64,000 nucleotides of DNA, from the NCBI RefSeq assembly GCF_016026235.1, contig NZ_CP065613.1. The stretch is one strand, 5' to 3'. This DNA is from Escherichia coli (GTDB lineage: Bacteria > Pseudomonadota > Gammaproteobacteria > Enterobacterales > Enterobacteriaceae). This document shows positions 10,935-47,528 of this stretch, in pieces. The notes under the pieces were generated by a model. It saw only the letters and a program-made list of their open reading frames with translations. It had not been told where the DNA came from and ran no database searches. The translations under genes were made by a program, and so were the position numbers. Each line of letters opens with the position of its first letter. Within the stretch, counting starts at the first letter, position 1.

Positions 10935-11186
10935 TGGAGCACCTCAAAAACACCATCATACACTAAATCAGTAAGTTGGCAGCATCACCCTCGTTATTAA
11001 AACTGGCGGAGAATGTGATTCGACATTCTCCACTCATACTAAACACACTGTCACTTGACGCAGGGCTGAAAGTTCTACAGCAACGGTATACCAATATGAT
11101 AATGGTTTACTAAATTTTCTGGGGATCCCTCAGGAGCAGTCCCCCACTCCGGCTTAACACGACAATCGCCTTTCAGCGAAACACAA

Positions 11187-24807: not shown

Positions 24808-25839
24808 ATGTCTGCATTTACCCCGGCAAGTGAAGTCTTGCTGCGTCACAGTGATGATTTCGAACAAAGCCGTATTCTGTTTGCCGGAGACTTACAGGAT
24901 GACCTGCCCGCGCGTTTAGATACCGCGGCCAGCCGTGCTCATACCCAGCAATTCCACCACTGGCAGGTATTAAGCCGCCAGATGGGGGATAACGCCCGTT
25001 TCAGTCTGGTCGCCACGGCGGATGACGTCGCAGATTGCGATACGCTGATTTACTACTGGCCGAAGAACAAACCGGAAGCCCAGTTCCAGTTGATGAATTT
25101 ACTTTCTCTGCTGCCAGTGGGGACAGATATTTTTGTCGTTGGCGAGAACCGCAGCGGCGTGCGCAGCGCCGAGCAGATGCTGGCAGATTATGCGCCGTTG
25201 AATAAAGTCGACAGCGCTCGTCGCTGTGGCCTCTATTTTGGTCGTCTGGAAAAACAGCCGGTATTTGATGCGGATAAATTCTGGGGCGAATACAGCGTCG
25301 ATGGCCTGACGGTCAAAACGCTGCCTGGCGTGTTTAGCCGCGACGGTCTGGATGTCGGTAGCCAGTTGCTGCTCTCGACGTTAACCCCGCACACGAAAGG
25401 TAAAGTGCTGGATGTCGGCTGTGGCGCGGGTGTGCTTTCAGTTGCCTTTGCGCGCCATTCGCCGAAAATTCGTCTCACCTTGTGCGATGTCTCTGCGCCA
25501 GCGGTAGAAGCCAGCCGCGCAACACTTGCGGCCAACGGTGTTGAAGGTGAAGTCTTTGCCAGCAACGTCTTTTCCGAGGTGAAAGGTCGTTTTGATATGA
25601 TCATCTCCAACCCGCCGTTCCACGATGGGATGCAAACCAGCCTGGATGCGGCGCAAACGCTGATTCGCGGCGCGGTGCGTCATCTTAATAGTGGCGGCGA
25701 GCTGCGAATTGTAGCGAACGCCTTCCTGCCTTATCCGGACGTGCTGGATGAGACATTTGGCTTCCATGAAGTGATTGCGCAAACCGGGCGTTTCAAGGTA
25801 TATCACGCCATTATGACCCGCCAGGCGAAAAAAGGTTAA
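24808..25839 (+). CDS. rsmC: 16S rRNA m2G1207 methyltransferase RsmC
   Basis: 343 aa, SAM-binding motif [12 protein letters not shown] and NPPFH. Confidence 0.9.
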
Positions 25840-25858
25840 GTATCCCGCCGCAAGCCTT

Positions 25859-25982
25859 GCCGGATGCGGCGTAAACGCCTTATCCGACCTACAAAACCTG
25901 CATGTTAGCCCTTCGTAGGCCAGATAAGACGCGCCAGCGTCGCATCTGGCATCTGCCCCCGCATGCCTACCAAACCTGCACG
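25859..25982. repeat. REP/BIME cluster downstream of rsmC
   Basis: three REP-like palindromic units (gccggatgcggcgtaaacgcc..., gtaggccagataagacgcg..., cgcatctggc...). Confidence 0.6.
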
Positions 25983-26106
25983 CTAGTTTCCTGATGGACA
26001 TTTTTCCAGCAATTACACCTCCGGCGATAATTAACTATTGACGAAAAGCTGAAAACCACTAGAATGCGCCTCCGTGGTAGCAATTCTTTTTAAGAATTGA
26101 TGGTAT

Positions 26107-26193
26107 GCGAAGGTGGCGGAATTGGTAGACGCGCTAGCTTCAGGTGTTAGTGTCCTTACGGACGTGGGGGTTCAAGTCCCCCCCCTCGCACCA
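26107..26193 (+). tRNA. leuQ: tRNA-Leu (anticodon CAG), copy 1
   Basis: 87 nt GCGAAGGTGGCGGAATTGGTAGACGCG...CTCGCACCA with long variable arm; gene symbol is by position only. Confidence 0.9.
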
Positions 26194-26227
26194 AACGAGG
26201 CGATATCAAAAAAAGTAAGATGACTGT

Positions 26228-26314
26228 GCGAAGGTGGCGGAATTGGTAGACGCGCTAGCTTCAGGTGTTAGTGTCCTTACGGACGTGGGGGTTCAAGTCC
26301 CCCCCCTCGCACCA
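26228..26314 (+). tRNA. leuP: tRNA-Leu (anticodon CAG), copy 2, identical to copy 1
   Basis: exact 87-nt repeat of copy 1, 34-bp spacer; gene symbol is by position only. Confidence 0.9.
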
Positions 26315-26352
26315 ATTATCTTTACTTCCTTTCTTGTTTCTTCCTTGATTTT

Positions 26353-26589
26353 TCATCCCTGATTCAAATTCATTATCATCAGCATGATGGCAGCAATAAG
26401 CGCTAGGCACGATGGTAGCAAAACGTAATGCCGTAACTGTTTGTGATACAGCATCACCGGCGTCAATACTAATCCCATCAGAATGACAATCCGCCACTGA
26501 TCCGGCGATAAATCCGCATACATCAGCCCTGCAATCAGCAATCCCGGCAGCAACACTCCCCAGCCACTGCCCAGCGTACGTTGCAACAT
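26353..26589 (-). CDS. yjjZ: small membrane protein YjjZ (DUF1435)
   Basis: 78 aa from MLQRTLGSGWGVLLPGLLIAGLMY. Confidence 0.8.
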   Translation of the reverse strand: MLQRTLGSGWGVLLPGLLIAGLMYADLSPDQWRIVILMGLVLTPVMLYHKQLRHYVLLPSCLALIAAIMLMIMNLNQG

Positions 26590-26604: not shown

Positions 26605-26646
26605 ATTGATAATGATAACCAATATCATATGATAATTTTTATCATT
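26605..26646. promoter_or_regulatory. Fur box(es) in the yjjZ / fhuF divergent promoter region
   Basis: tgataatgataaccaatatc matches the Fur consensus GATAATGATAATCATTATC at 17/19, followed by overlapping gataattttta repeats. Confidence 0.55.
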
Positions 26647-26696
26647 TGCAAGCCAGAGAAATCCCTTGCTATCGGGTAAACCTATCGCTAGGATTA

Positions 26697-26729: not shown

Positions 26730-27518
26730 ATGGCCTATCGTTCCGCACCGCTCTATGAAGATGTTATCTGGCGAACGCATCTCCAGCCGCAGGATCCCAC
26801 GCTTGCGCAAGCCGTGCGGGCGACGATCGCAAAACATCGTGAACATTTGCTGGAGTTTATCCGCCTGGATGAACCTGCCCCACTTAACGCCATGACGCTG
26901 GCGCAATGGTCATCACCGAATGTGCTAAGTTCTCTGCTGGCGGTCTATTCCGATCATATCTATCGCAACCAACCGATGATGATCCGCGAGAACAAACCGC
27001 TGATCTCACTGTGGGCACAATGGTATATCGGCCTGATGGTGCCACCATTAATGCTGGCGCTACTGACGCAGGAAAAGGCATTAGATGTGTCGCCGGAACA
27101 TTTCCATGCTGAGTTTCACGAAACCGGCCGTGCCGCCTGTTTCTGGGTCGATGTGTGTGAAGATAAAAACGCAACACCACATTCGCCGCAGCAGCGAATG
27201 GAAAGGTTAATCAGCCAGGCGCTGGTTCCGGTTGTGCAGGCACTAGAAGCGACCGGAGAGATCAACGGCAAACTTATCTGGAGTAATACCGGTTATTTGA
27301 TCAACTGGTATCTTACTGAGATGAAGCAACTGCTCGGCGAGGCGACGGTTGAATCGCTGCGCCATGCCCTCTTTTTTGAGAAAACGCTCACGAACGGTGA
27401 AGATAATCCACTCTGGCGTACCGTGGTACTGCGCGATGGCCTGCTGGTGCGCCGCACTTGCTGCCAGCGTTATCGCTTACCGGATGTGCAGCAATGTGGC
27501 GATTGTACGCTGAAATGA
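26730..27518 (+). CDS. fhuF: ferric-siderophore reductase FhuF (2Fe-2S, C-terminal Cys cluster)
   Basis: 262 aa, C-terminal CCQRYRLPDVQQCGDC motif. Confidence 0.9.
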   Translation: MAYRSAPLYEDVIWRTHLQPQDPTLAQAVRATIAKHREHLLEFIRLDEPAPLNAMTLAQWSSPNVLSSLLAVYSDHIYRNQPMMIRENKPLISLWAQWYIGLMVPPLMLALLTQEKALDVSPEHFHAEFHETGRAACFWVDVCEDKNATPHSPQQRMERLISQALVPVVQALEATGEINGKLIWSNTGYLINWYLTEMKQLLGEATVESLRHALFFEKTLTNGEDNPLWRTVVLRDGLLVRRTCCQRYRLPDVQQCGDCTLK

Positions 27519-35382: not shown

Positions 35383-36388
35383 TCAGAAAGTAATTACACC
35401 CTTAATCAACTCACGATTGTTAATCACATCGCGCTCGTAGGTTTCTGCCAGCGTGGCGAACGGATAGCGATGGGTTAACATCATGTCAGCAGTGATTTTT
35501 CCTTCCGCCATCAGTCGACCGACTTTAGCAAAATCTTCCGGCGTGGCGTTGCGGCTACCCATCATCGTCGTTTCTTTTTTATGGAATTCCGGATCGGAGA
35601 ACTGCAACTCACCTTTAAACAGGCCGACAAATACCACCGTGCCGCCGTGACGAATCAAATTCACGGTGTTATTCATCGCATGTTGATTACCTGTCGCGTC
35701 GATCACTTTCTGCGCCAGCGAACCACCAAACTGCGCCCGTAGCTGCGCGTCAAAATCTTCGGCTGACGGGTCCAGTAAAGGTAATTCCAGACGCGTTGCC
35801 ACATGTTCACGGCGCGCCGGACTGGTATCCGCCACCACCACCTGTGCGCCATCGGCTTTAGCGATTGCCGCCGCGCCCAGACCGATTGGCCCCGCCCCGA
35901 CCACCAGCACCTGCTCGCCGGGAGCAATGGCTGCGCGACGCACCGCATGAGCGCTAATAGCGAAAGGTTCAATCAATGCTGCCGCCTGCGGGCAAAATGT
36001 TCGCCACCGGCACGCTCAAATACTCACTAAAACCGCCATCCTGATGCACGCCAATGACTGAAATTTTTTCACAGCAATTGGTACGCCCGCTTTTACACGC
36101 CGGACATTGCTGACAGGCAACATAAGGGATCACAGCAACTTGCTGACCATTTTTAAGATCAGCAATATTTTTACCCAGCCCAACAATCTCCCCACATATT
36201 TCATGGCCTAAAACCCGTGGATAACTAAAAAATGGTTGATTTCCACCCCAGGCATGAATATCGGTACCGCAAATCCCGACAGACTTAATTTTTATTAATG
36301 CTTCATTGTCACCCGGAATAGGTATCTCGCGTTGTTTCCAGACTAATTCTTTCGGCTGCTGGCAAATTAAAACATTCATCGTAGACAT
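35383..36388 (-). pseudogene. lgoD: L-galactonate oxidoreductase LgoD (YjjN), disrupted by a frameshift near 35969-35976
   Basis: two overlapping ORFs (144 aa N-terminal zinc-ADH part ending ...PAGGSID; 197 aa C-terminal part) which together give the 340-aa enzyme. Confidence 0.8.
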
Positions 36389-36526
36389 GATTCGGCTCTC
36401 CATTTTTTGTTGCCTTAGATATCAATGAAAATGAAAAATGGCAGCGGAACGGAAAATCTGTTTTGTGAAAACACACGCATAAAAATGTTTTAAATCGGGT
36501 TTTAATGGACTCACAAGGAGGAAAAT

Positions 36527-39064: not shown

Positions 39065-40729
39065 TTAAAACGTTTCCCAGTTCTCCCCGCTATCTGCCAC
39101 TGCCATTTTACGCGGCGTAGCTGGCGTCACGTTTTTTACCACAGCCGATGTTTCACGCTGCTGTTGCTGCTGTTGCTGAATCCGGAACACTGCCACAGCT
39201 TCGGTCAGGCGACTGGCCTGCTCTTCCAGCGCGGCGGCGGCAGCGGCAGATTCTTCCACCAGCGCAGCGTTCTGTTGAGTTACCCGGTCCATCTCAGCAA
39301 CCGCTAAGCCAACCTGATCGATACCACGGCTCTGCTCATCAGAAGCAGAAGCAATTTCGCCCATAATGTCCGTCACGCGGGTCACGGCACTGACAATCTC
39401 CGCCATTGTTTCCCCTGCGCTTTCGACCAGCGTAGAGCCAACATCTACTTTCCCCACCGAGTCTTCAATCAGGCTTTTAATTTCACGAGCCGCCTGAGCG
39501 CTGCGCTGGGCCAGATTACGCACTTCACCCGCGACCACCGCAAAACCGCGCCCTTGCTCACCCGCGCGCGCTGCTTCAACCGCCGCGTTCAAAGCCAGAA
39601 TATTGGTCTGGAAGGCAATGCCGTCAATTACGCTGATAATATCGGCGATTTTCTGCGAACTGGTGGAGATATCGCGCATAGTCTGCACCACGTTATCTAC
39701 CACTTTGCCGCCGCGTTGCGCCGTTTCAGAAGCACTTAACGCCAGGTGGCTGGCCTGGCGCGCATTTTCGGCGTTCTGTTTCACCGTTGCGGTCAGTTGC
39801 TCCATGCTGGCTGCCGTCTCTTCCAGCGAAGCGGCCTGTTGCTCGGTGCGCGAAGAGAGATCGTTATTGCCGGTAGCGATTTCGCTGGCACCGCTATAGA
39901 TGGCATTGGCCCCGTTGCGCACATCACCGACGGTACGCATCAGCTCTCCCTGCATATGGCGCAAACTCTCTGCCAGTTGCCCCATCTCATTAGAGCCATC
40001 CACCTCAATCGGTTTCACCAGATCGCCGCCTGCAATATGACGAATGCTGTCAATCAGGCGATTCATTGGCGCTACCAACGAGGCTTTAATACCGAACCAG
40101 ACGGCGAAGATGACTGCCAGTACGACGATCATCACGCCCACCAGAATCCACATCGCCTGGCTGTAGGAGGCATTATTATCGCTGACGGCGATATCATAGA
40201 GCCGATCGTTTTGCTCCATGTAAGCCACATACTGCTTCTCGAAACCGTCCTGATATCCCTGGGTCGGCTGATCAAAGAACTCGTTGATTTTGCCTGCACC
40301 TAACAGTTGGATCAGCTCCGCCAGCGCATTGTGATAAATATCGTAATTACGTTTGATCTCTGCCGCTGCGGCGGTGCTCTGACGCGGGTCACGCGGCAAC
40401 GCTTCGTAATCCGCCCAGTTTTTTTCCGCCTGTTTCAGCGAAATACTGGCACTCTCCATCAGCTCAGCAACGGTTGAACCGCTACCAATATTATTCTGAT
40501 CCATCATGTAGCGGATACCCGCGCGGTTGAGGGTGTTACGCGTCTGCAACAACGCGACCCAGCTGCCATTCAGCGTGGATTGCTGCTGGCGAATGGTTTG
40601 TAAAACAGTGAAATTTTCTTTGTCATTCTTTAAGGCATTAAAGAACAGACCGCCTGATGTCAGTTGTAAAAGGCCAAAAACGGCCAAAACCAGCAGTAAG
40701 CTGGTCACAATTTTGATACGTTTTAACAT
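39065..40729 (-). CDS. tsr: methyl-accepting chemotaxis protein I (serine sensor) Tsr
   Basis: 554 aa, C-terminal NWETF pentapeptide, 7-residue Gln tract before RETSAVV. Confidence 0.9.
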
Positions 40730-43305: not shown

Positions 43306-43509
43306 ATGTTTGGTAACTTAGGACAGGCAAAAAAATATCTCGGCCAGGCGGCAAAGATGTTGATTGGCATTCCAGACTACGACAACTACGTCGAGCATAT
43401 GAAGACCAACCATCCCGACAAGCCGTACATGAGCTATGAAGAATTCTTCCGCGAACGCCAGAACGCGCGCTACGGCGGCGATGGTAAAGGCGGTATGCGC
43501 TGTTGTTAA
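43306..43509 (+). CDS. yjiX: small protein YjiX (DUF466)
   Basis: 67 aa [33 protein letters not shown]. Confidence 0.85.
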
Positions 43510-43519
43510 TGGAGAGAGC

Positions 43520-44476
43520 ATGAACCCGATTGCAGTTACCCTACTCACCGGTTTTTTAGGCGCGGGAAAAACCACCCTGCTGCGCCATATTCTTAACGAA
43601 CAACACGGCTACAAGATTGCCGTGATTGAAAACGAATTCGGCGAAGTCTCCGTTGATGATCAACTAATTGGCGACCGCGCCACGCAGATCAAAACGCTGA
43701 CCAACGGCTGCATCTGCTGTTCGCGCTCCAACGAGCTGGAAGACGCACTACTCGACCTGCTGGATAATCTCGACAAGGGCAATATTCAGTTTGACCGTCT
43801 GGTCATTGAATGCACCGGCATGGCCGATCCCAGCCCGATTATTCAGACCTTTTTCTCCCATGAGATTTTATGCCAGCGTTACCTGCTGGACGGTGTGATT
43901 GCGCTGGTGGATGCGGTACATGCCGACGAGCAGATGAACCAGTTCACCATCGCTCAGTCCCAGGTTGGCTACGCCGACCGTATTCTGCTGACCAAAACCG
44001 ACGTCGCAGGCGAAGCAGAAAAACTGCGTGAACGCCTGGCGCGCATCAACGCCCGTGCACCGGTCTACACCGTCACCCACGGCGACATCGACCTGGGCCT
44101 GCTGTTCAACACCAACGGTTTTATGCTGGAAGAGAACGTCGTCAGCACCAAACCGCGTTTCCACTTTATCGCGGATAAACAAAACGATATTTCGTCGATT
44201 GTGGTGGAACTGGATTACCCGGTAGATATCAGCGAAGTTTCCCGGGTGATGGAAAACCTGCTTCTGGAATCGGCAGATAAACTGCTGCGTTACAAAGGGA
44301 TGCTGTGGATTGACGGCGAACCTAACCGCCTGCTGTTCCAGGGCGTCCAGCGCCTCTACAGCGCCGACTGGGACCGCCCGTGGGGCGATGAAAAACCGCA
44401 TAGCACAATGGTGTTTATCGGGATTCAGTTGCCGGAGGAAGAGATTCGGGCAGCGTTTGCGGGGTTGAGGAAGTAA
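43520..44476 (+). CDS. yjiA: CobW/P47K-family GTPase YjiA
   Basis: 318 aa from MNPIAVTLLTGFLGAGKTTLL; P-loop and CxCC motif. Confidence 0.9.
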   Translation: MNPIAVTLLTGFLGAGKTTLLRHILNEQHGYKIAVIENEFGEVSVDDQLIGDRATQIKTLTNGCICCSRSNELEDALLDLLDNLDKGNIQFDRLVIECTGMADPSPIIQTFFSHEILCQRYLLDGVIALVDAVHADEQMNQFTIAQSQVGYADRILLTKTDVAGEAEKLRERLARINARAPVYTVTHGDIDLGLLFNTNGFMLEENVVSTKPRFHFIADKQNDISSIVVELDYPVDISEVSRVMENLLLESADKLLRYKGMLWIDGEPNRLLFQGVQRLYSADWDRPWGDEKPHSTMVFIGIQLPEEEIRAAFAGLRK

Positions 44477-44487
44477 TTTTGGATGAT

Positions 44488-44518
44488 GGCCGCCATGGGG
44501 CGGCCTGAATTATTTTTT
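44488..44518. terminator. convergent stem-loop between yjiA and brnA
   Basis: ggccgcc-atgg-ggcggcc followed by tgaattatttttt on the plus strand. Confidence 0.4.
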
Positions 44519-44812
44519 GTTCTGATCGCGCAGCATCGCTTCACGTAAAATTGCGTTCAGGCGAGTTTGATAGCCTTTACCTGGTCGCTTCAACCATTCC
44601 ATCACATCAGCATCAATACGCACCGAAGCCTGAGTTTTCAATGGCCGATAAAACTTACCGCGTTCGGCGTTAGACCATTGCTCATCGCTGGAAGGTGGGA
44701 TATCACTGTAATCAATATCTTCGTCGGATTTATTCGCCAGCGCCTTCAGTTCGGCCTCATGCTGCACATCGAGTGTAGAGGAGGTCCCTCGTTTATGTTT
44801 AACCATGCTCAT
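44510..44812 (-). CDS. BrnA-like antitoxin (ribbon-helix-helix, COG3514-type)
   Basis: about 100 aa from MSMVKHKRG...; C-terminal SVRIDADVMEWLKRPGKGYQTRLNAILREAM is typical of BrnA; start 8 bp after the BrnT stop. Confidence 0.7.
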   Translation of the reverse strand: MSMVKHKRGTSSTLDVQHEAELKALANKSDEDIDYSDIPPSSDEQWSNAERGKFYRPLKTQASVRIDADVMEWLKRPGKGYQTRLNAILREAMLRDQNKK

Positions 44813-45086
44813 AGCGATTCCTCTCTTTACGATCTGCTTTTCGTGCACTGATGATTCGAATAATTTCATTTCCGCTTTCGAAACGGATGGTATGCGCAAC
44901 CAGAATAACCACGATGCCGTAAACCAGGCCGATTGTCTGCCAGCGATACTCACCGTTTTCTATGCGTTCTTGCTGTGACAAATGTTGTGGATCATCAAAC
45001 AATAACACCGCATCTTCAAAGCGGATGCCATGTTTCACCCGATTACTTTTGGCCTTGTTTTCATCCCATTCAAACTCCATTGGCAT
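44799..45086 (-). CDS. BrnT-like toxin (DUF497 / COG2929 ribonuclease type)
   Basis: MPMEFEWDENKAKSNRVKHGIRFEDAVLLFDDP...IRIISARKADRKERNRYE; DUF497 hallmarks FEWDxxKAxxNxxKHG and IRIISARKA; start codon uncertain (45080-45113). Confidence 0.7.
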   Translation of the reverse strand: MPMEFEWDENKAKSNRVKHGIRFEDAVLLFDDPQHLSQQERIENGEYRWQTIGLVYGIVVILVAHTIRFESGNEIIRIISARKADRKERNRYEHG

Positions 45087-45284
45087 AATTGCCATCCCTA
45101 ATTGTATATACAAAAATGTATCTACAATTATTCTGCAATTATAGCGTTGATGTTGGAAATAGCATCACGTTTCGAATAATCAACCATAAAATTGACAATG
45201 AGTAAGTTGGACTTGATTCATCCAATAGAATTTCTCGCCTGACATGGCACACTAAACACCTCGCTGTCGGGTAATGACTCCAAC

Positions 45285-45787
45285 TTACTGATAGTGTTTT
45301 ATGTTCAGATAATGCCCGATGACCTTGTCATGCAGCTCCACCGATTTTGAGAACGACAGTGACTTCCGTCCCAGCCTTGCCAGATGTTGTCTCAGATTCA
45401 GATTATGTCGCTCAATGCGCTGAGTGTAACGCTTGCTGATAACGTGCAGCTTTCCCTTCAGGCGTGATTCATACAGCGGCCAGCCATCCGTCATCTATAC
45501 TACGACCTCAAAGGCCGACAGCAGGCTCAGAAGACGCTCCAGTGTGGCCAGAGTGCGTTCACCGAAGACGTGGCCACAACCGTCCTCCGTATCCTGTCAT
45601 ACGCGTAAAACAGCCAGCGCTGACGTGATTTAGCACCGACGTAGCCCCAATGTTCGTCCATTTCAGCGCAGACAATCACATCACTGCCCGGTTGTATGCG
45701 CGAGGTTACCGACTGCGGCCTGAGTTTTTTAAGTGACGTAAAACCGTGTTGAGGCCAACGCCCATAATGCGTGCACTGGCGCGACAT
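45285..45787 (-). pseudogene. insB: IS1 insB, frameshifted and interrupted
   Basis: split into 86-aa and 69-aa ORF fragments; alignment to copy 1 shows a 1-bp deletion (cgtggccacaaccg vs cgtgcgcaacaaccg) and a stop (ctatactac). Confidence 0.7.
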
Positions 45788-45981
45788 CCGACGCCATTCA
45801 TGGCCATATCAATGATTTTCTGGTGCGTACCGGGCTGAGAGGCGGTGTAAGTGAACTGCAGTTGCCATGTTTTACGGCAATGAGAGCAGAGATAGCGCTG
45901 ATGTCCGGCAGTGCTTTTGCCGTTACGCACCACGCCTTCAGTAGCGGAGCAGGAAGCACATCTGATGGAAATGGAAGCCAC
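45706..45981 (-). CDS. insA: IS1 InsA (variant)
   Basis: 91 aa [37 protein letters not shown]. Confidence 0.8.
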
Positions 45982-46295
45982 GCAAGCACCTTAAAATCAC
46001 CATCATACACTAAATCAGTAAGTTGGCAGCATTACCAAATTTTAATTACACTTAAGGTGTATATTTTCTATGCAAGCCATCAATTAAAGAGGTGTAATGT
46101 TCTGATGACTATTTGTAATCGTTATACATTCTGACCTGGAGTCAGAAGGTATTTCTCTGTCTGTGTATTCGCAGGCAGTGTGGTTGATTACATGAAATTC
46201 AGTACATTTGTCCTTCTCGCCTGCCTTTCGTCATTACCGACGGTATTGAATTTCGTTTTCCCCATTGGGGTTCTCCGGACAAGGAGTTGTTTGTT

Positions 46296-47528
46296 ATGCC
46301 ACGTTTTTTTGCCCGCCATGCCGCCACGCTGTTTTTCCCGATGGCGTTGATTTTGTATGACTTTGCTGCGTATCTGTCGACGGACCTGATCCAGCCAGGG
46401 ATCATTAATGTGGTCCGTGATTTTAATGCCGATGTCAGTCTGGCCCCGGCTGCCGTCAGTCTCTATCTCGCTGGAGGCATGGCATTGCAGTGGCTGCTGG
46501 GGCCGCTTTCCGACAGGGTTGGCCGCAGGCCGGTGCTGATTACCGGGGCGCTAATATTTACCCTTGCCTGCGCTGCGACAATGTTCACAACGTCTATGAC
46601 ACAGTTTCTTATCGCGCGTGCAATTCAGGGCACCAGTATCTGTTTTATTGCCACCGTTGGTTATGTCACGGTGCAGGAGGCGTTCGGACAGACAAAAGGG
46701 ATCAAGTTGATGGCGATTATCACCTCCATCGTACTGATTGCGCCGATTATTGGCCCGCTTTCCGGCGCAGCTCTGATGCACTTTGTGCACTGGAAAGTCC
46801 TTTTTGCCATCATTGCGGTTATGGGTTTTATCTCATTTGTTGGCTTACTGCTGGCGATGCCAGAGACGGTGAAGCGCGGCGCGGTTCCATTTAGCGCCAA
46901 AAGCGTCTTGCGCGATTTTCGTAATGTCTTTTGCAATCGGCTGTTCCTCTTTGGCGCAGCAACCATCTCTTTAAGCTATATCCCCATGATGAGTTGGGTG
47001 GCTGTCTCGCCGGTGATCCTGATCGACGCGGGCGGCTTAACAACTTCGCAGTTCGCCTGGACACAGGTTCCGGTGTTCGGCGCGGTGATTGTCGCGAATG
47101 CCATCGTGGCGCGTTTCGTTAAAGATCCGACCGAACCGCGCTTTATCTGGCGTGCCGTACCCCTTCAACTGGTTGGCCTCGCGCTGTTGATTATCGGCAA
47201 TCTGCTGTCACCGCACGTCTGGCTGTGGTCGGTGCTGGGCACCAGTCTGTATGCTTTCGGGATTGGTTTGATTTTCCCGACCTTATTCCGCTTTACGCTG
47301 TTTTCCAATAACTTACCGAAAGGGACCGTCTCCGCATCGCTGAATATGGTGATCCTGATGGTGATGTCTGTCTCGGTCGAAATCGGCCGCTGGCTGTGGT
47401 TTAACAGCGGTCGCTTGCCGTTTCATCTGTTAGCCGTTGTGGCAGGCGTTATCGTCGTTTTCACCCTGGCCGGATTGCTTAATCGCGTGCGCCAACATCA
47501 GGCTGCCGAGCTGGCGGAGGAGCGGTGA
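46296..47528 (+). CDS. mdtM: MFS multidrug efflux transporter MdtM
   Basis: 410 aa from [27 protein letters not shown]. Confidence 0.9.

What the first reader, a model, noticed from the sequence alone, without database searches (positions are those of the whole stretch)
26107..26314. Only two tandem tRNA-Leu(CAG) genes where K-12 has three
Two identical 87-nt tRNA-Leu genes separated by 34 bp. I recall K-12 as having three tandem copies (leuQ, leuP, leuV) here, so this is probably copy-number variation by unequal recombination. It could be an assembly collapse.
Basis: partly seen in the sequence, partly recalled or inferred. Interest (0 to 1): 0.15.

Follow-up and report, generated by a model that had tools for sequence, protein, structure and literature searches.

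The report
Two-copy leucine tRNA array, one deleted
This strain carries two instead of the usual three tandem leucine-tRNA (CAG) genes because one 115-bp repeat unit was lost by recombination between neighbouring copies; this is an ordinary, recurrent polymorphism in E. coli.

Summary
Two identical 87-nt tRNA-Leu(CAG) genes lie at 26107-26193 and 26228-26314 (+), 34 nt apart, between rsmC and yjjZ/fhuF, which is the leuQPV locus. K-12 MG1655 has three copies there: leuQ, 28 nt, leuP, 34 nt, leuV. The window lacks exactly one repeat period of 115 bp (87 + 28).

Two assemblies that are nearly identical to the window still carry all three copies. They show 0 mismatches in 2349 nt upstream and 1 or 5 in 4291 nt downstream, and their middle copy has the C48T variant. 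The loss is therefore recent and private to this genome. The crossover lies in tRNA nt 49-87, joining a leuQ 5' part to the leuP 3' context.

Three copies is the usual state in Enterobacteriaceae: 89 of 109 species representatives found by a scan for tandem junctions. Among 5426 complete E. coli genomes, about 4960 have three copies and 425 have one. Only 35 records have two, and 21 of those share the window's spacer. Sampled two-copy genomes carry different crossover points on different flank haplotypes, so the deletion has happened many times.

Assembly collapse cannot be excluded without reads. It is disfavoured, because the junction sequence does not exist in the three-copy relatives. Verdict: real, ordinary, low interest.

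The parts
26038..26065 (+). Sigma-70 promoter of the tRNA operon: TTGACG, 16 nt, TAGAAT, followed by the G+C-rich discriminator GCGCCTCC. It lies 41 nt upstream of the first tRNA.
   Evidence: Promoter scan gives 10 of 12 matches. This stretch is invariant in the alignment with K-12 and two other E. coli. Distance to the tRNA. That this is the growth-rate-regulated leuQPV promoter is from memory of the literature, not tested here.
26107..26193 (+). tRNA-Leu(CAG) copy 1. Its sequence is identical to K-12 leuQ and leuV (C at nt 48). It sits behind the leuQ leader and in front of the leuP-leuV spacer, so it is a leuQ/leuP fusion.
   Evidence: ARAGORN, Rfam, comparison with K-12 and with L004/L005.
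26155..26195 (+). Interval that must contain the deletion crossover: tRNA nt 49-87 plus the AA shared by both spacers. It lies 3' of the C48/T48 marker and 5' of the first spacer-specific base.
   Evidence: The three-copy relatives have Q(C48), 28 nt, P(T48), 34 nt, V(C48). The window has C48 followed by the 34-nt spacer. This is an inference from that comparison.
26194..26227 (+). 34-nt spacer AACGAGGCGATATCAAAAAAAGTAAGATGACTGT, identical to the K-12 leuP-leuV spacer. The 28-nt leuQ-leuP spacer is absent from the window.
26228..26314 (+). tRNA-Leu(CAG) copy 2, equivalent to K-12 leuV, the last gene of the operon.
26315..26374 (+). T/C-rich, G-poor trailer (C 14, G 3 of 60) with no hairpin terminator. 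This is the presumed Rho-dependent termination region.
   Evidence: Composition. No intrinsic terminator on the + strand. Rho-dependent termination of leuQ leuP leuV is stated in PMC2190699. Its function here is inferred.
24808..25839 (+). rsmC, the upstream flank that fixes the locus.
   Evidence: ORF. Annotated in syntenic E. coli records.
26353..26589 (-). yjjZ (DUF1435), the convergent downstream flank, followed by fhuF at 26730-27518 (+).

Best explanation
This is the leuQPV tRNA-Leu(CAG) operon after loss of one repeat unit. The ancestor of this genome had three tandem genes: leuQ with C48, a 28-nt spacer, leuP with T48, a 34-nt spacer, then leuV with C48. Misaligned homologous pairing between leuQ and leuP removed exactly one 115-bp period. 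This could have been unequal sister-chromatid exchange or replication slippage between the 87-nt repeats. The exchange fell in the 3' 39 nt of the tRNA sequence. The product is one promoter driving two identical tRNA genes separated by the old leuP-leuV spacer. The leuP (T48) isodecoder and the 28-nt spacer are gone. The promoter, both mature tRNA sequences, the remaining spacer and the trailer are intact. The operon should therefore still be transcribed and processed as in K-12, with lower tRNA-Leu(CAG) gene dosage: probably 3 genes instead of 4 genome-wide if leuT is present elsewhere. Shown here: the structure, the polarity (deletion, not duplication in K-12), the recency, and the recurrence in the species. 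Inferred: the molecular pathway, the expression and the dosage effect.
For: Structure.

K-12 has three copies with 28- and 34-nt spacers and C48T in leuP.

Near-identical relatives L004 and L005 show 0 mismatches in 2349 nt upstream and 1 or 5 mismatches in 4291 nt downstream, yet have the K-12-like three-copy array. The length difference is exactly 115 = 87 + 28.

Three copies is the usual state among the 109 Enterobacteriaceae species-representative loci found by a scan for tandem junctions. Eighty-nine have three copies, none has four, and spacers are about 28 and 30-34 nt. This set cannot include single-copy species.

Counts in 5426 complete E. coli genomes:
- 28-nt spacer present in 4975.
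- 34-nt spacer present in 4984.
- Single-copy configuration in 425.
- 35 two-copy records, of which 21 have the window's 34-nt spacer and 14 have the 28-nt spacer.

Nine sampled 34-nt-spacer two-copy genomes have C48 in copy 1 in five cases and T48 in four, on several different flank haplotypes. These are independent events with crossovers on either side of nt 48, as expected for recombination anywhere within the repeat.

The nearest complete RefSeq E. coli, 13E0767 (99.6% over 12 kb), has three copies.
Against: No reads are available, so the copy number in this particular assembly is unverified. The window differs from L004 by almost nothing else, which fits a very recent deletion but also fits an assembly or consensus error in one of many near-clonal assemblies. 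The recombination pathway, RecA-dependent exchange or slippage, cannot be told from sequence.
Confidence: 0.77

Rival explanations
1. Assembly or consensus collapse: the real genome has three copies like its near-identical relatives, and the assembler dropped one 115-bp unit.
For: The closest relatives L004 and L005 are identical upstream, differ by 1-5 SNPs downstream, and have three copies. The two-copy allele with the 34-nt spacer is rare, 21 of 5426 complete genomes. A short-read metagenome contig with the same FhuF protein (L006) shows one copy, and could itself be either collapsed or a true single-copy allele.
Against: The window's junction, C48 followed 39 nt later by the 34-nt spacer, is a 43-nt string absent from L001 and L004-L007. 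A de Bruijn graph built from three-copy reads with k of 43 or more has no such path. The natural collapse there is to one copy, not to this two-copy form. The window has no homopolymer-indel noise over 38 kb compared with strain MJ-T, so it is not a raw long-read consensus. The identical allele type recurs in closed genomes, including two assemblies of strain 167.
Confidence: 0.2
2. Two copies is the older state, and K-12 and most E. coli gained a third copy by duplication.
For: None beyond the formal possibility. Unequal exchange makes both products.
Against: Three copies with the same spacer pattern occur in E. albertii, Salmonella, Citrobacter, Enterobacter, Klebsiella, Kosakonia and others, 89 of 109 junction-bearing loci. 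The middle-copy C48T marker is shared across genera. Relatives that differ from the window by 1 SNP in 6.6 kb have three copies.
Confidence: 0.01
3. The reduction was selected rather than being a neutral accident: lower tRNA-Leu(CAG) dosage is favoured in a slow-growth or host-restricted lineage.
For: Deleting redundant tRNA genes, including leuVPQ, costs growth in rich media and can help in poor media (PMC9981150). 7.8% of complete E. coli genomes carry only one copy. The window carries two IS1 copies and a 17-bp frameshifting deletion in lgoD, which hints at a lineage accumulating gene losses.
Against: The deletion is private to this genome among near-identical relatives, so there is no sign of spread. 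Tandem repeats delete at high rates without selection. No fitness data exist for a 3-to-2 change.
Confidence: 0.08

Closest known systems
E. coli K-12 leuQ-leuP-leuV operon (b4370, b4369, b4368)
   Same: Same locus (rsmC | array | yjjZ | fhuF). Same promoter and leader, same mature tRNA sequence, same 34-nt spacer and trailer. In K-12 the transcript is cut into pre-tRNAs by RNase P and terminates Rho-dependently (PMC2190699).
   Different: Two genes instead of three. The 28-nt leuQ-leuP spacer and the leuP C48T isodecoder are missing.
Single-copy allele of the same locus (for example strains TUM9803, HS30-1, SMBL)
   Same: Same kind of event: loss of whole repeat units inside the array, leaving leader, tRNA, trailer.
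   Different: Both spacers are lost (236 bp). It is much commoner, 425 of 5426 complete genomes against 21 for the window's allele.
Two-copy allele with the 28-nt spacer (for example MJ-T, O157:H7 TR01)
   Same: Also two copies from one unit lost.
   Different: The exchange was between leuP and leuV, a 121-bp loss, so the other spacer survives. It is found in 14 records.
Other tandem tRNA arrays of E. coli that vary in copy number (for example glyVXY)
   Same: Tandem identical tRNA genes whose number differs between strains. McDonald et al. note three or four glyV-type copies in a tandem array across E. coli (PMC4539685).
   Different: A different tRNA and locus. Not examined here.

Membership tests
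tRNA-Leu(CAG) genes of the leuQPV operon | Cloverleaf tRNA with a long variable arm and anticodon CAG | tested here: met
   ARAGORN places anticodon cag at position 35 in both copies. Rfam RF00005 scores 48.5 bits against a gathering score of 29.
tRNA-Leu(CAG) genes of the leuQPV operon | Sequence identity with K-12 leuQ and leuV | tested here: met
   0 mismatches in 87 nt for both copies.
tRNA-Leu(CAG) genes of the leuQPV operon | Position between rsmC and yjjZ/fhuF, behind the conserved promoter and leader | tested here: met
   Synteny. Promoter. Leader invariant.
tRNA-Leu(CAG) genes of the leuQPV operon | Three tandem genes with 28-nt and 34-nt spacers | tested here: not met
   Two genes, with only the 34-nt spacer present. 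It is a deletion allele of the operon, not a different family.
tRNA-Leu(CAG) genes of the leuQPV operon | Transcribed as one precursor and separated by RNase P | not testable with these tools
   Shown for K-12 only (PMC2190699).
Deletion by homologous exchange or slippage within a tandem repeat | The missing segment equals exactly one repeat period, and the junction lies inside the repeat with no extra bases | tested here: met
   115 = 87 + 28. The junction lies in tRNA nt 49-87, and the flanks align base for base with L004.
Deletion by homologous exchange or slippage within a tandem repeat | Undeleted state present in the closest relatives and in outgroups | tested here: met
   L004, L005 and 13E0767 have three copies, as do 89 of 109 junction-bearing species representatives.
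Deletion by homologous exchange or slippage within a tandem repeat | Independent recurrence with different exchange points | tested here: met
   Copy 1 has C48 in five and T48 in four sampled two-copy genomes, on several flank haplotypes. The 28-nt-spacer class and the one-copy class also exist.
Deletion by homologous exchange or slippage within a tandem repeat | Copy number confirmed by reads or PCR in this isolate | not testable with these tools
   No reads or DNA are available.

The most novel reading that the evidence does not exclude
The middle gene leuP carries a C48T change, giving a U-G wobble pair in the variable-arm stem. This change is kept in E. coli, E. albertii, Salmonella and at least 27 other enterobacterial species, despite sitting between two identical paralogues that could convert it. 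If the U48 isodecoder has its own function, then this genome, and every one-copy genome, has lost a distinct tRNA species rather than just a redundant gene. Copy number at this locus might also be tuned by selection on growth rate.
Probability: 0.08. Interest if true: 0.35.

Novelty: already known. Interest (0 to 1): 0.08.

Why it matters
It matters little. It is a clean example of how tandem tRNA genes gain and lose units, and it gives population numbers for one locus: about 91% three copies, 7.8% one copy and 0.65% two copies among complete E. coli genomes. tRNA-Leu(CAG) reads CUG, recalled here as the commonest E. coli codon. A one-gene loss may slightly lower maximal translation capacity in rich media, going by published tRNA-gene deletion experiments. 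For annotation, the first gene should not simply be named leuQ or leuP, because it is a fusion of the two.

Tried and rejected
1. The first 34-nt spacer query (58 nt) gave no match, probably because the low-complexity filter masked the A-run and left no 28-nt word. A longer query worked.

2. I first read the best 23-kb match of 98.8-98.9% as meaning no close relative exists in RefSeq, and that the nearest relatives have 1-2 copies. That ranking was biased, because three-copy genomes split the query into two places. An array-free 12-kb query gave 99.6% to B1-like strains that have three copies.

3. I guessed that the 158-nt two-piece hits were expanded arrays with a duplicated 34-nt spacer. Strain EC4 is an ordinary three-copy array. 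I therefore have no confirmed case of four or more copies. The only hint is 4982 places in 4975 genomes for the 28-nt spacer, which I did not follow up.

4. A first BLAST suggested 15 mismatches and 5 gaps upstream against L004. This was misalignment through the array. A register-correct comparison gives 0 mismatches.

5. I tried to identify the organism of GCA_031665325.1 and GCA_901482675.2 through the paper library and found nothing. The yjjZ SNP that separates the window from L004 is synonymous, so an exact-protein look-up could not single out the source assembly.

6. A search for 'leuV promoter' found nothing useful. Statements about promoter regulation rest on memory only.

Full report
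**Observation**

ARAGORN finds only two tRNA genes in the 64-kb window. Both are tRNA-Leu(CAG), at 26107-26193 and 26228-26314 on the + strand. Rfam's tRNA model confirms both at 48.5 bits against a gathering score of 29. The repeat finder shows a perfect 89-nt direct repeat with 121-nt spacing, so the spacer is 34 nt (sequence).

**Locus**

The array lies downstream of rsmC (24808-25839). Between them sit a REP-rich intergenic stretch and a strong sigma-70 promoter, TTGACG, 16 nt, TAGAAT, at 26038-26065, followed by the G+C-rich discriminator GCGCCTCC. Downstream are the convergent yjjZ (26353-26589, minus strand) and fhuF (26730-27518). Annotated E. coli records show the same order.

No intrinsic terminator follows the array on the + strand. 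The first 60 nt after it are T/C-rich and G-poor, with C 14 and G 3. That fits the Rho-dependent termination reported for leuQ leuP leuV in K-12. In K-12 the polycistronic transcript is separated by RNase P, and the trailer is trimmed by PNPase and RNase II (PMC2190699).

**Comparison with K-12**

MG1655 has three genes here, in transcription order leuQ, leuP, leuV. Their spacers are 28 nt (AAAACCACGTTGATATTGCTCGCACTGG) and 34 nt (AACGAGGCGATATCAAAAAAAGTAAGATGACTGT). leuP differs from the other two by C48T. By my own reading of the sequence, that base pairs with G55 in the variable-arm stem.

The window has the leuQ leader, a C48 tRNA, the 34-nt spacer, a C48 tRNA, and the leuV trailer. It lacks the 28-nt spacer and the T48 copy. 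The difference is exactly 115 bp, which is 87 + 28.

**Polarity and age of the change**

An exact-protein look-up with the window's FhuF returned two large NCBI contigs, L004 (GCA_031665325.1) and L005 (GCA_901482675.2).
- Both are identical to the window over the 2349 nt upstream of the array.
- They differ by only 1 and 5 substitutions over the 4291 nt downstream.
- Both carry the K-12-type three-copy array, including T48 in the middle copy.

The window's state is therefore a very recent, private loss. The first copy keeps C48 but is followed by the leuP-leuV spacer. The exchange must therefore lie between tRNA nt 49 and the second base of the spacer, window 26155-26195.

A scan of species-representative genomes for tandem tRNA-Leu(CAG) junctions returned 109 loci across Enterobacteriaceae.
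- Eighty-nine have three tandem copies, with spacers of about 27-29 nt and then about 30-34 nt.
- None has four.
- Only four are clearly two-copy away from locus edges.
- The scan cannot see single-copy species, because it requires a junction.

The pattern '=, C48T, =' is shared by E. coli, E. albertii (which also carries C24T in the middle copy), Salmonella enterica subsp. arizonae and at least 27 species. Three copies is therefore the older state, and the idea that K-12 gained a copy is rejected.

**Frequency in E. coli (5426 complete genomes)**

| Configuration | Count |
|---|---|
| 28-nt spacer junction present | 4975 genomes |
| 34-nt spacer junction present | 4984 genomes |
| Leader-tRNA-trailer (single copy) | 425 genomes |
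| Two copies, 34-nt spacer (as in the window) | 21 records |
| Two copies, 28-nt spacer | 14 records |

These numbers agree with each other and imply about 4960 three-copy genomes. That is roughly 91.4% with three copies, 7.8% with one and 0.65% with two. The window's own type is about 0.4%.

I fetched nine two-copy genomes with the 34-nt spacer. Copy 1 has C48 in five (O111:H2 12A, 167, LR-33, FDAARGOS_1283, STEC299). It has T48 in four (ETEC1701, AVS0747, O84:H7 Trh52, 2015C-4136CT1). They sit on several different leader and trailer haplotypes. The deletion has therefore arisen repeatedly, with exchange points on both sides of nt 48. That is what homologous exchange or slippage anywhere in an 87-nt repeat predicts. 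MJ-T and O157:H7 TR01 represent the reciprocal class, leuP-leuV exchange with the 28-nt spacer kept.

**Real deletion or assembly collapse?**

Reads are not available, so this cannot be settled. Three points favour a real deletion.
- The junction in the window (C48, then 39 nt of tRNA, then AAC of the 34-nt spacer) is a 43-nt string that does not occur in K-12, L004, L005, L006 or MJ-T. A k-mer graph built from three-copy reads with k of 43 or more cannot produce it. Its natural collapse would be to one copy.
- Over 38 kb aligned to strain MJ-T, the window has only a handful of indels and no homopolymer noise. It does not look like an unpolished long-read consensus.
- The same allele type exists in closed genomes, including two assemblies of strain 167.

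Against a real deletion: every close relative seen has three copies, and the allele is rare. I put a real deletion at about 0.77 and an artefact at about 0.2.

**Consequence (inferred)**

The promoter, leader, both mature sequences, the remaining spacer and the trailer are unchanged, so the operon should work as in K-12 with one gene fewer. If leuT is present elsewhere, as in K-12, the genome has three rather than four tRNA-Leu(CAG) genes and no U48 isodecoder.

Published deletions of redundant tRNA genes in E. coli, including the whole leuVPQ set, lower growth and elongation rate in rich media. They are neutral or beneficial in poor media, and the remaining copies do not compensate fully (PMC9981150). 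A single-gene loss would be expected to have a smaller effect of the same kind. This was not tested.

**Comparison with what is known, and novelty**

This is a deletion allele of a textbook operon, made by a textbook mechanism. Tandem tRNA arrays that vary in copy number between E. coli strains are already described (PMC4539685). Nothing about the structure is unexpected. Interest is low.

The only mildly curious point is the cross-genus conservation of the leuP C48T variant between two identical neighbours. That was seen in passing and is not part of the finding.

**Source of the window**

The nearest complete RefSeq E. coli genomes are 99.6% identical over an array-free 12 kb. They are bovine and human strains such as 13E0767 and NCTC9040, and 13E0767 has three copies. 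The window carries two IS1 copies, an IS4-like transposase remnant where K-12 (from memory) has yjjJ, and a 17-bp frameshifting deletion in lgoD. It has no hsd/mcr/mrr region. A Shigella or another IS-rich E. coli lineage is possible, but this was not established.

Noticed in passing
L001 (K-12), L004, L005, and L009, L029, L052, L084 among others; absent from window 26107-26314: The middle gene of the array (leuP) carries C48T, giving a U-G wobble pair in the variable-arm stem. The pattern 'identical, C48T, identical' is shared by E. coli, E. albertii, Salmonella arizonae and at least 27 enterobacterial species representatives, even though two identical paralogues flank it and could convert it. 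The window has lost this isodecoder.
   Followed up: partly
E. coli genome collection: 425 of 5426 complete E. coli genomes (7.8%) have only one tRNA-Leu(CAG) gene at this locus. 14 records have two copies with the 28-nt spacer. The phylogenetic distribution was not mapped.
   Followed up: partly
window 35383-36403 (-), deletion near 35986: lgoD (L-galactonate oxidoreductase) is split into two ORFs (35383-35976 and 35969-36403) by a 17-bp deletion relative to strain MJ-T. It is probably a pseudogene.
   Followed up: partly
window 44477-46286: Between yjiA (43436-44476) and mdtM (46287-47528), where K-12 (gene order recalled from memory) has mrr-hsdRMS-symE-mcrBC and neighbours, there are only about 1.8 kb. 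This holds a small overlapping gene pair that looks like a BrnT/BrnA toxin-antitoxin pair by eye (44510-45113, minus strand). It also holds an IS1 copy (about 45250-46020) whose insB reading frame is broken into 86-aa and 69-aa pieces.
   Followed up: partly
window 9893-11133: About 1.24 kb is absent from strain MJ-T. It contains a second, apparently intact IS1 (insA 10659-10934, insB 10237-10740, minus strand) next to the N-terminal remnant of what looks like an IS4-family transposase (9925-10302). K-12 has yjjJ here (from memory). Two IS1 copies in 64 kb suggest an IS-rich lineage, possibly Shigella.
   Followed up: no
window 26606-26651: An AT-rich palindrome, TTGATAATGATAACCAATATCATATGATAATTTTTATCATTTGCAA, lies in the divergent yjjZ/fhuF promoter region and overlaps promoter-like hexamers on both strands. 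It resembles tandem Fur boxes. That fits the iron regulation of fhuF, which I recall from the literature and did not test.
   Followed up: no
window 25845-25990: REP/BIME-type repeats lie between rsmC and the tRNA promoter, including a 21-nt direct repeat at 25888 and 25966. The distance from rsmC to the array differs between E. coli strains, and REP variation may explain the low identity of the first 1-kb query.
   Followed up: no
window 39157 (tsr, 39065-40729, minus strand): A 9-bp in-frame insertion (GCTGCTGTT) is present relative to strain MJ-T tsr.
   Followed up: no
L124 (E. coli 2015C-4136CT1) 401-486 and 521-606; L125 (EC4) 390-477: Some deposited genomes have 86-nt or 88-nt tRNA-Leu(CAG) genes because the 8-C run is 7 or 9 long. 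This run is the indel hotspot reported in mismatch-repair-defective mutation-accumulation lines (PMC8510543). Such length variants in deposited genomes could be real mutations or homopolymer sequencing errors.
   Followed up: no
L006 (ENA ERZ1310317 NODE_1286) 2499-2585: A 22-kb metagenome contig encoding the same FhuF protein as the window has a single tRNA copy and is about 98.6% identical to the window in the flanks. It is either a true single-copy strain or a short-read collapse.
   Followed up: no
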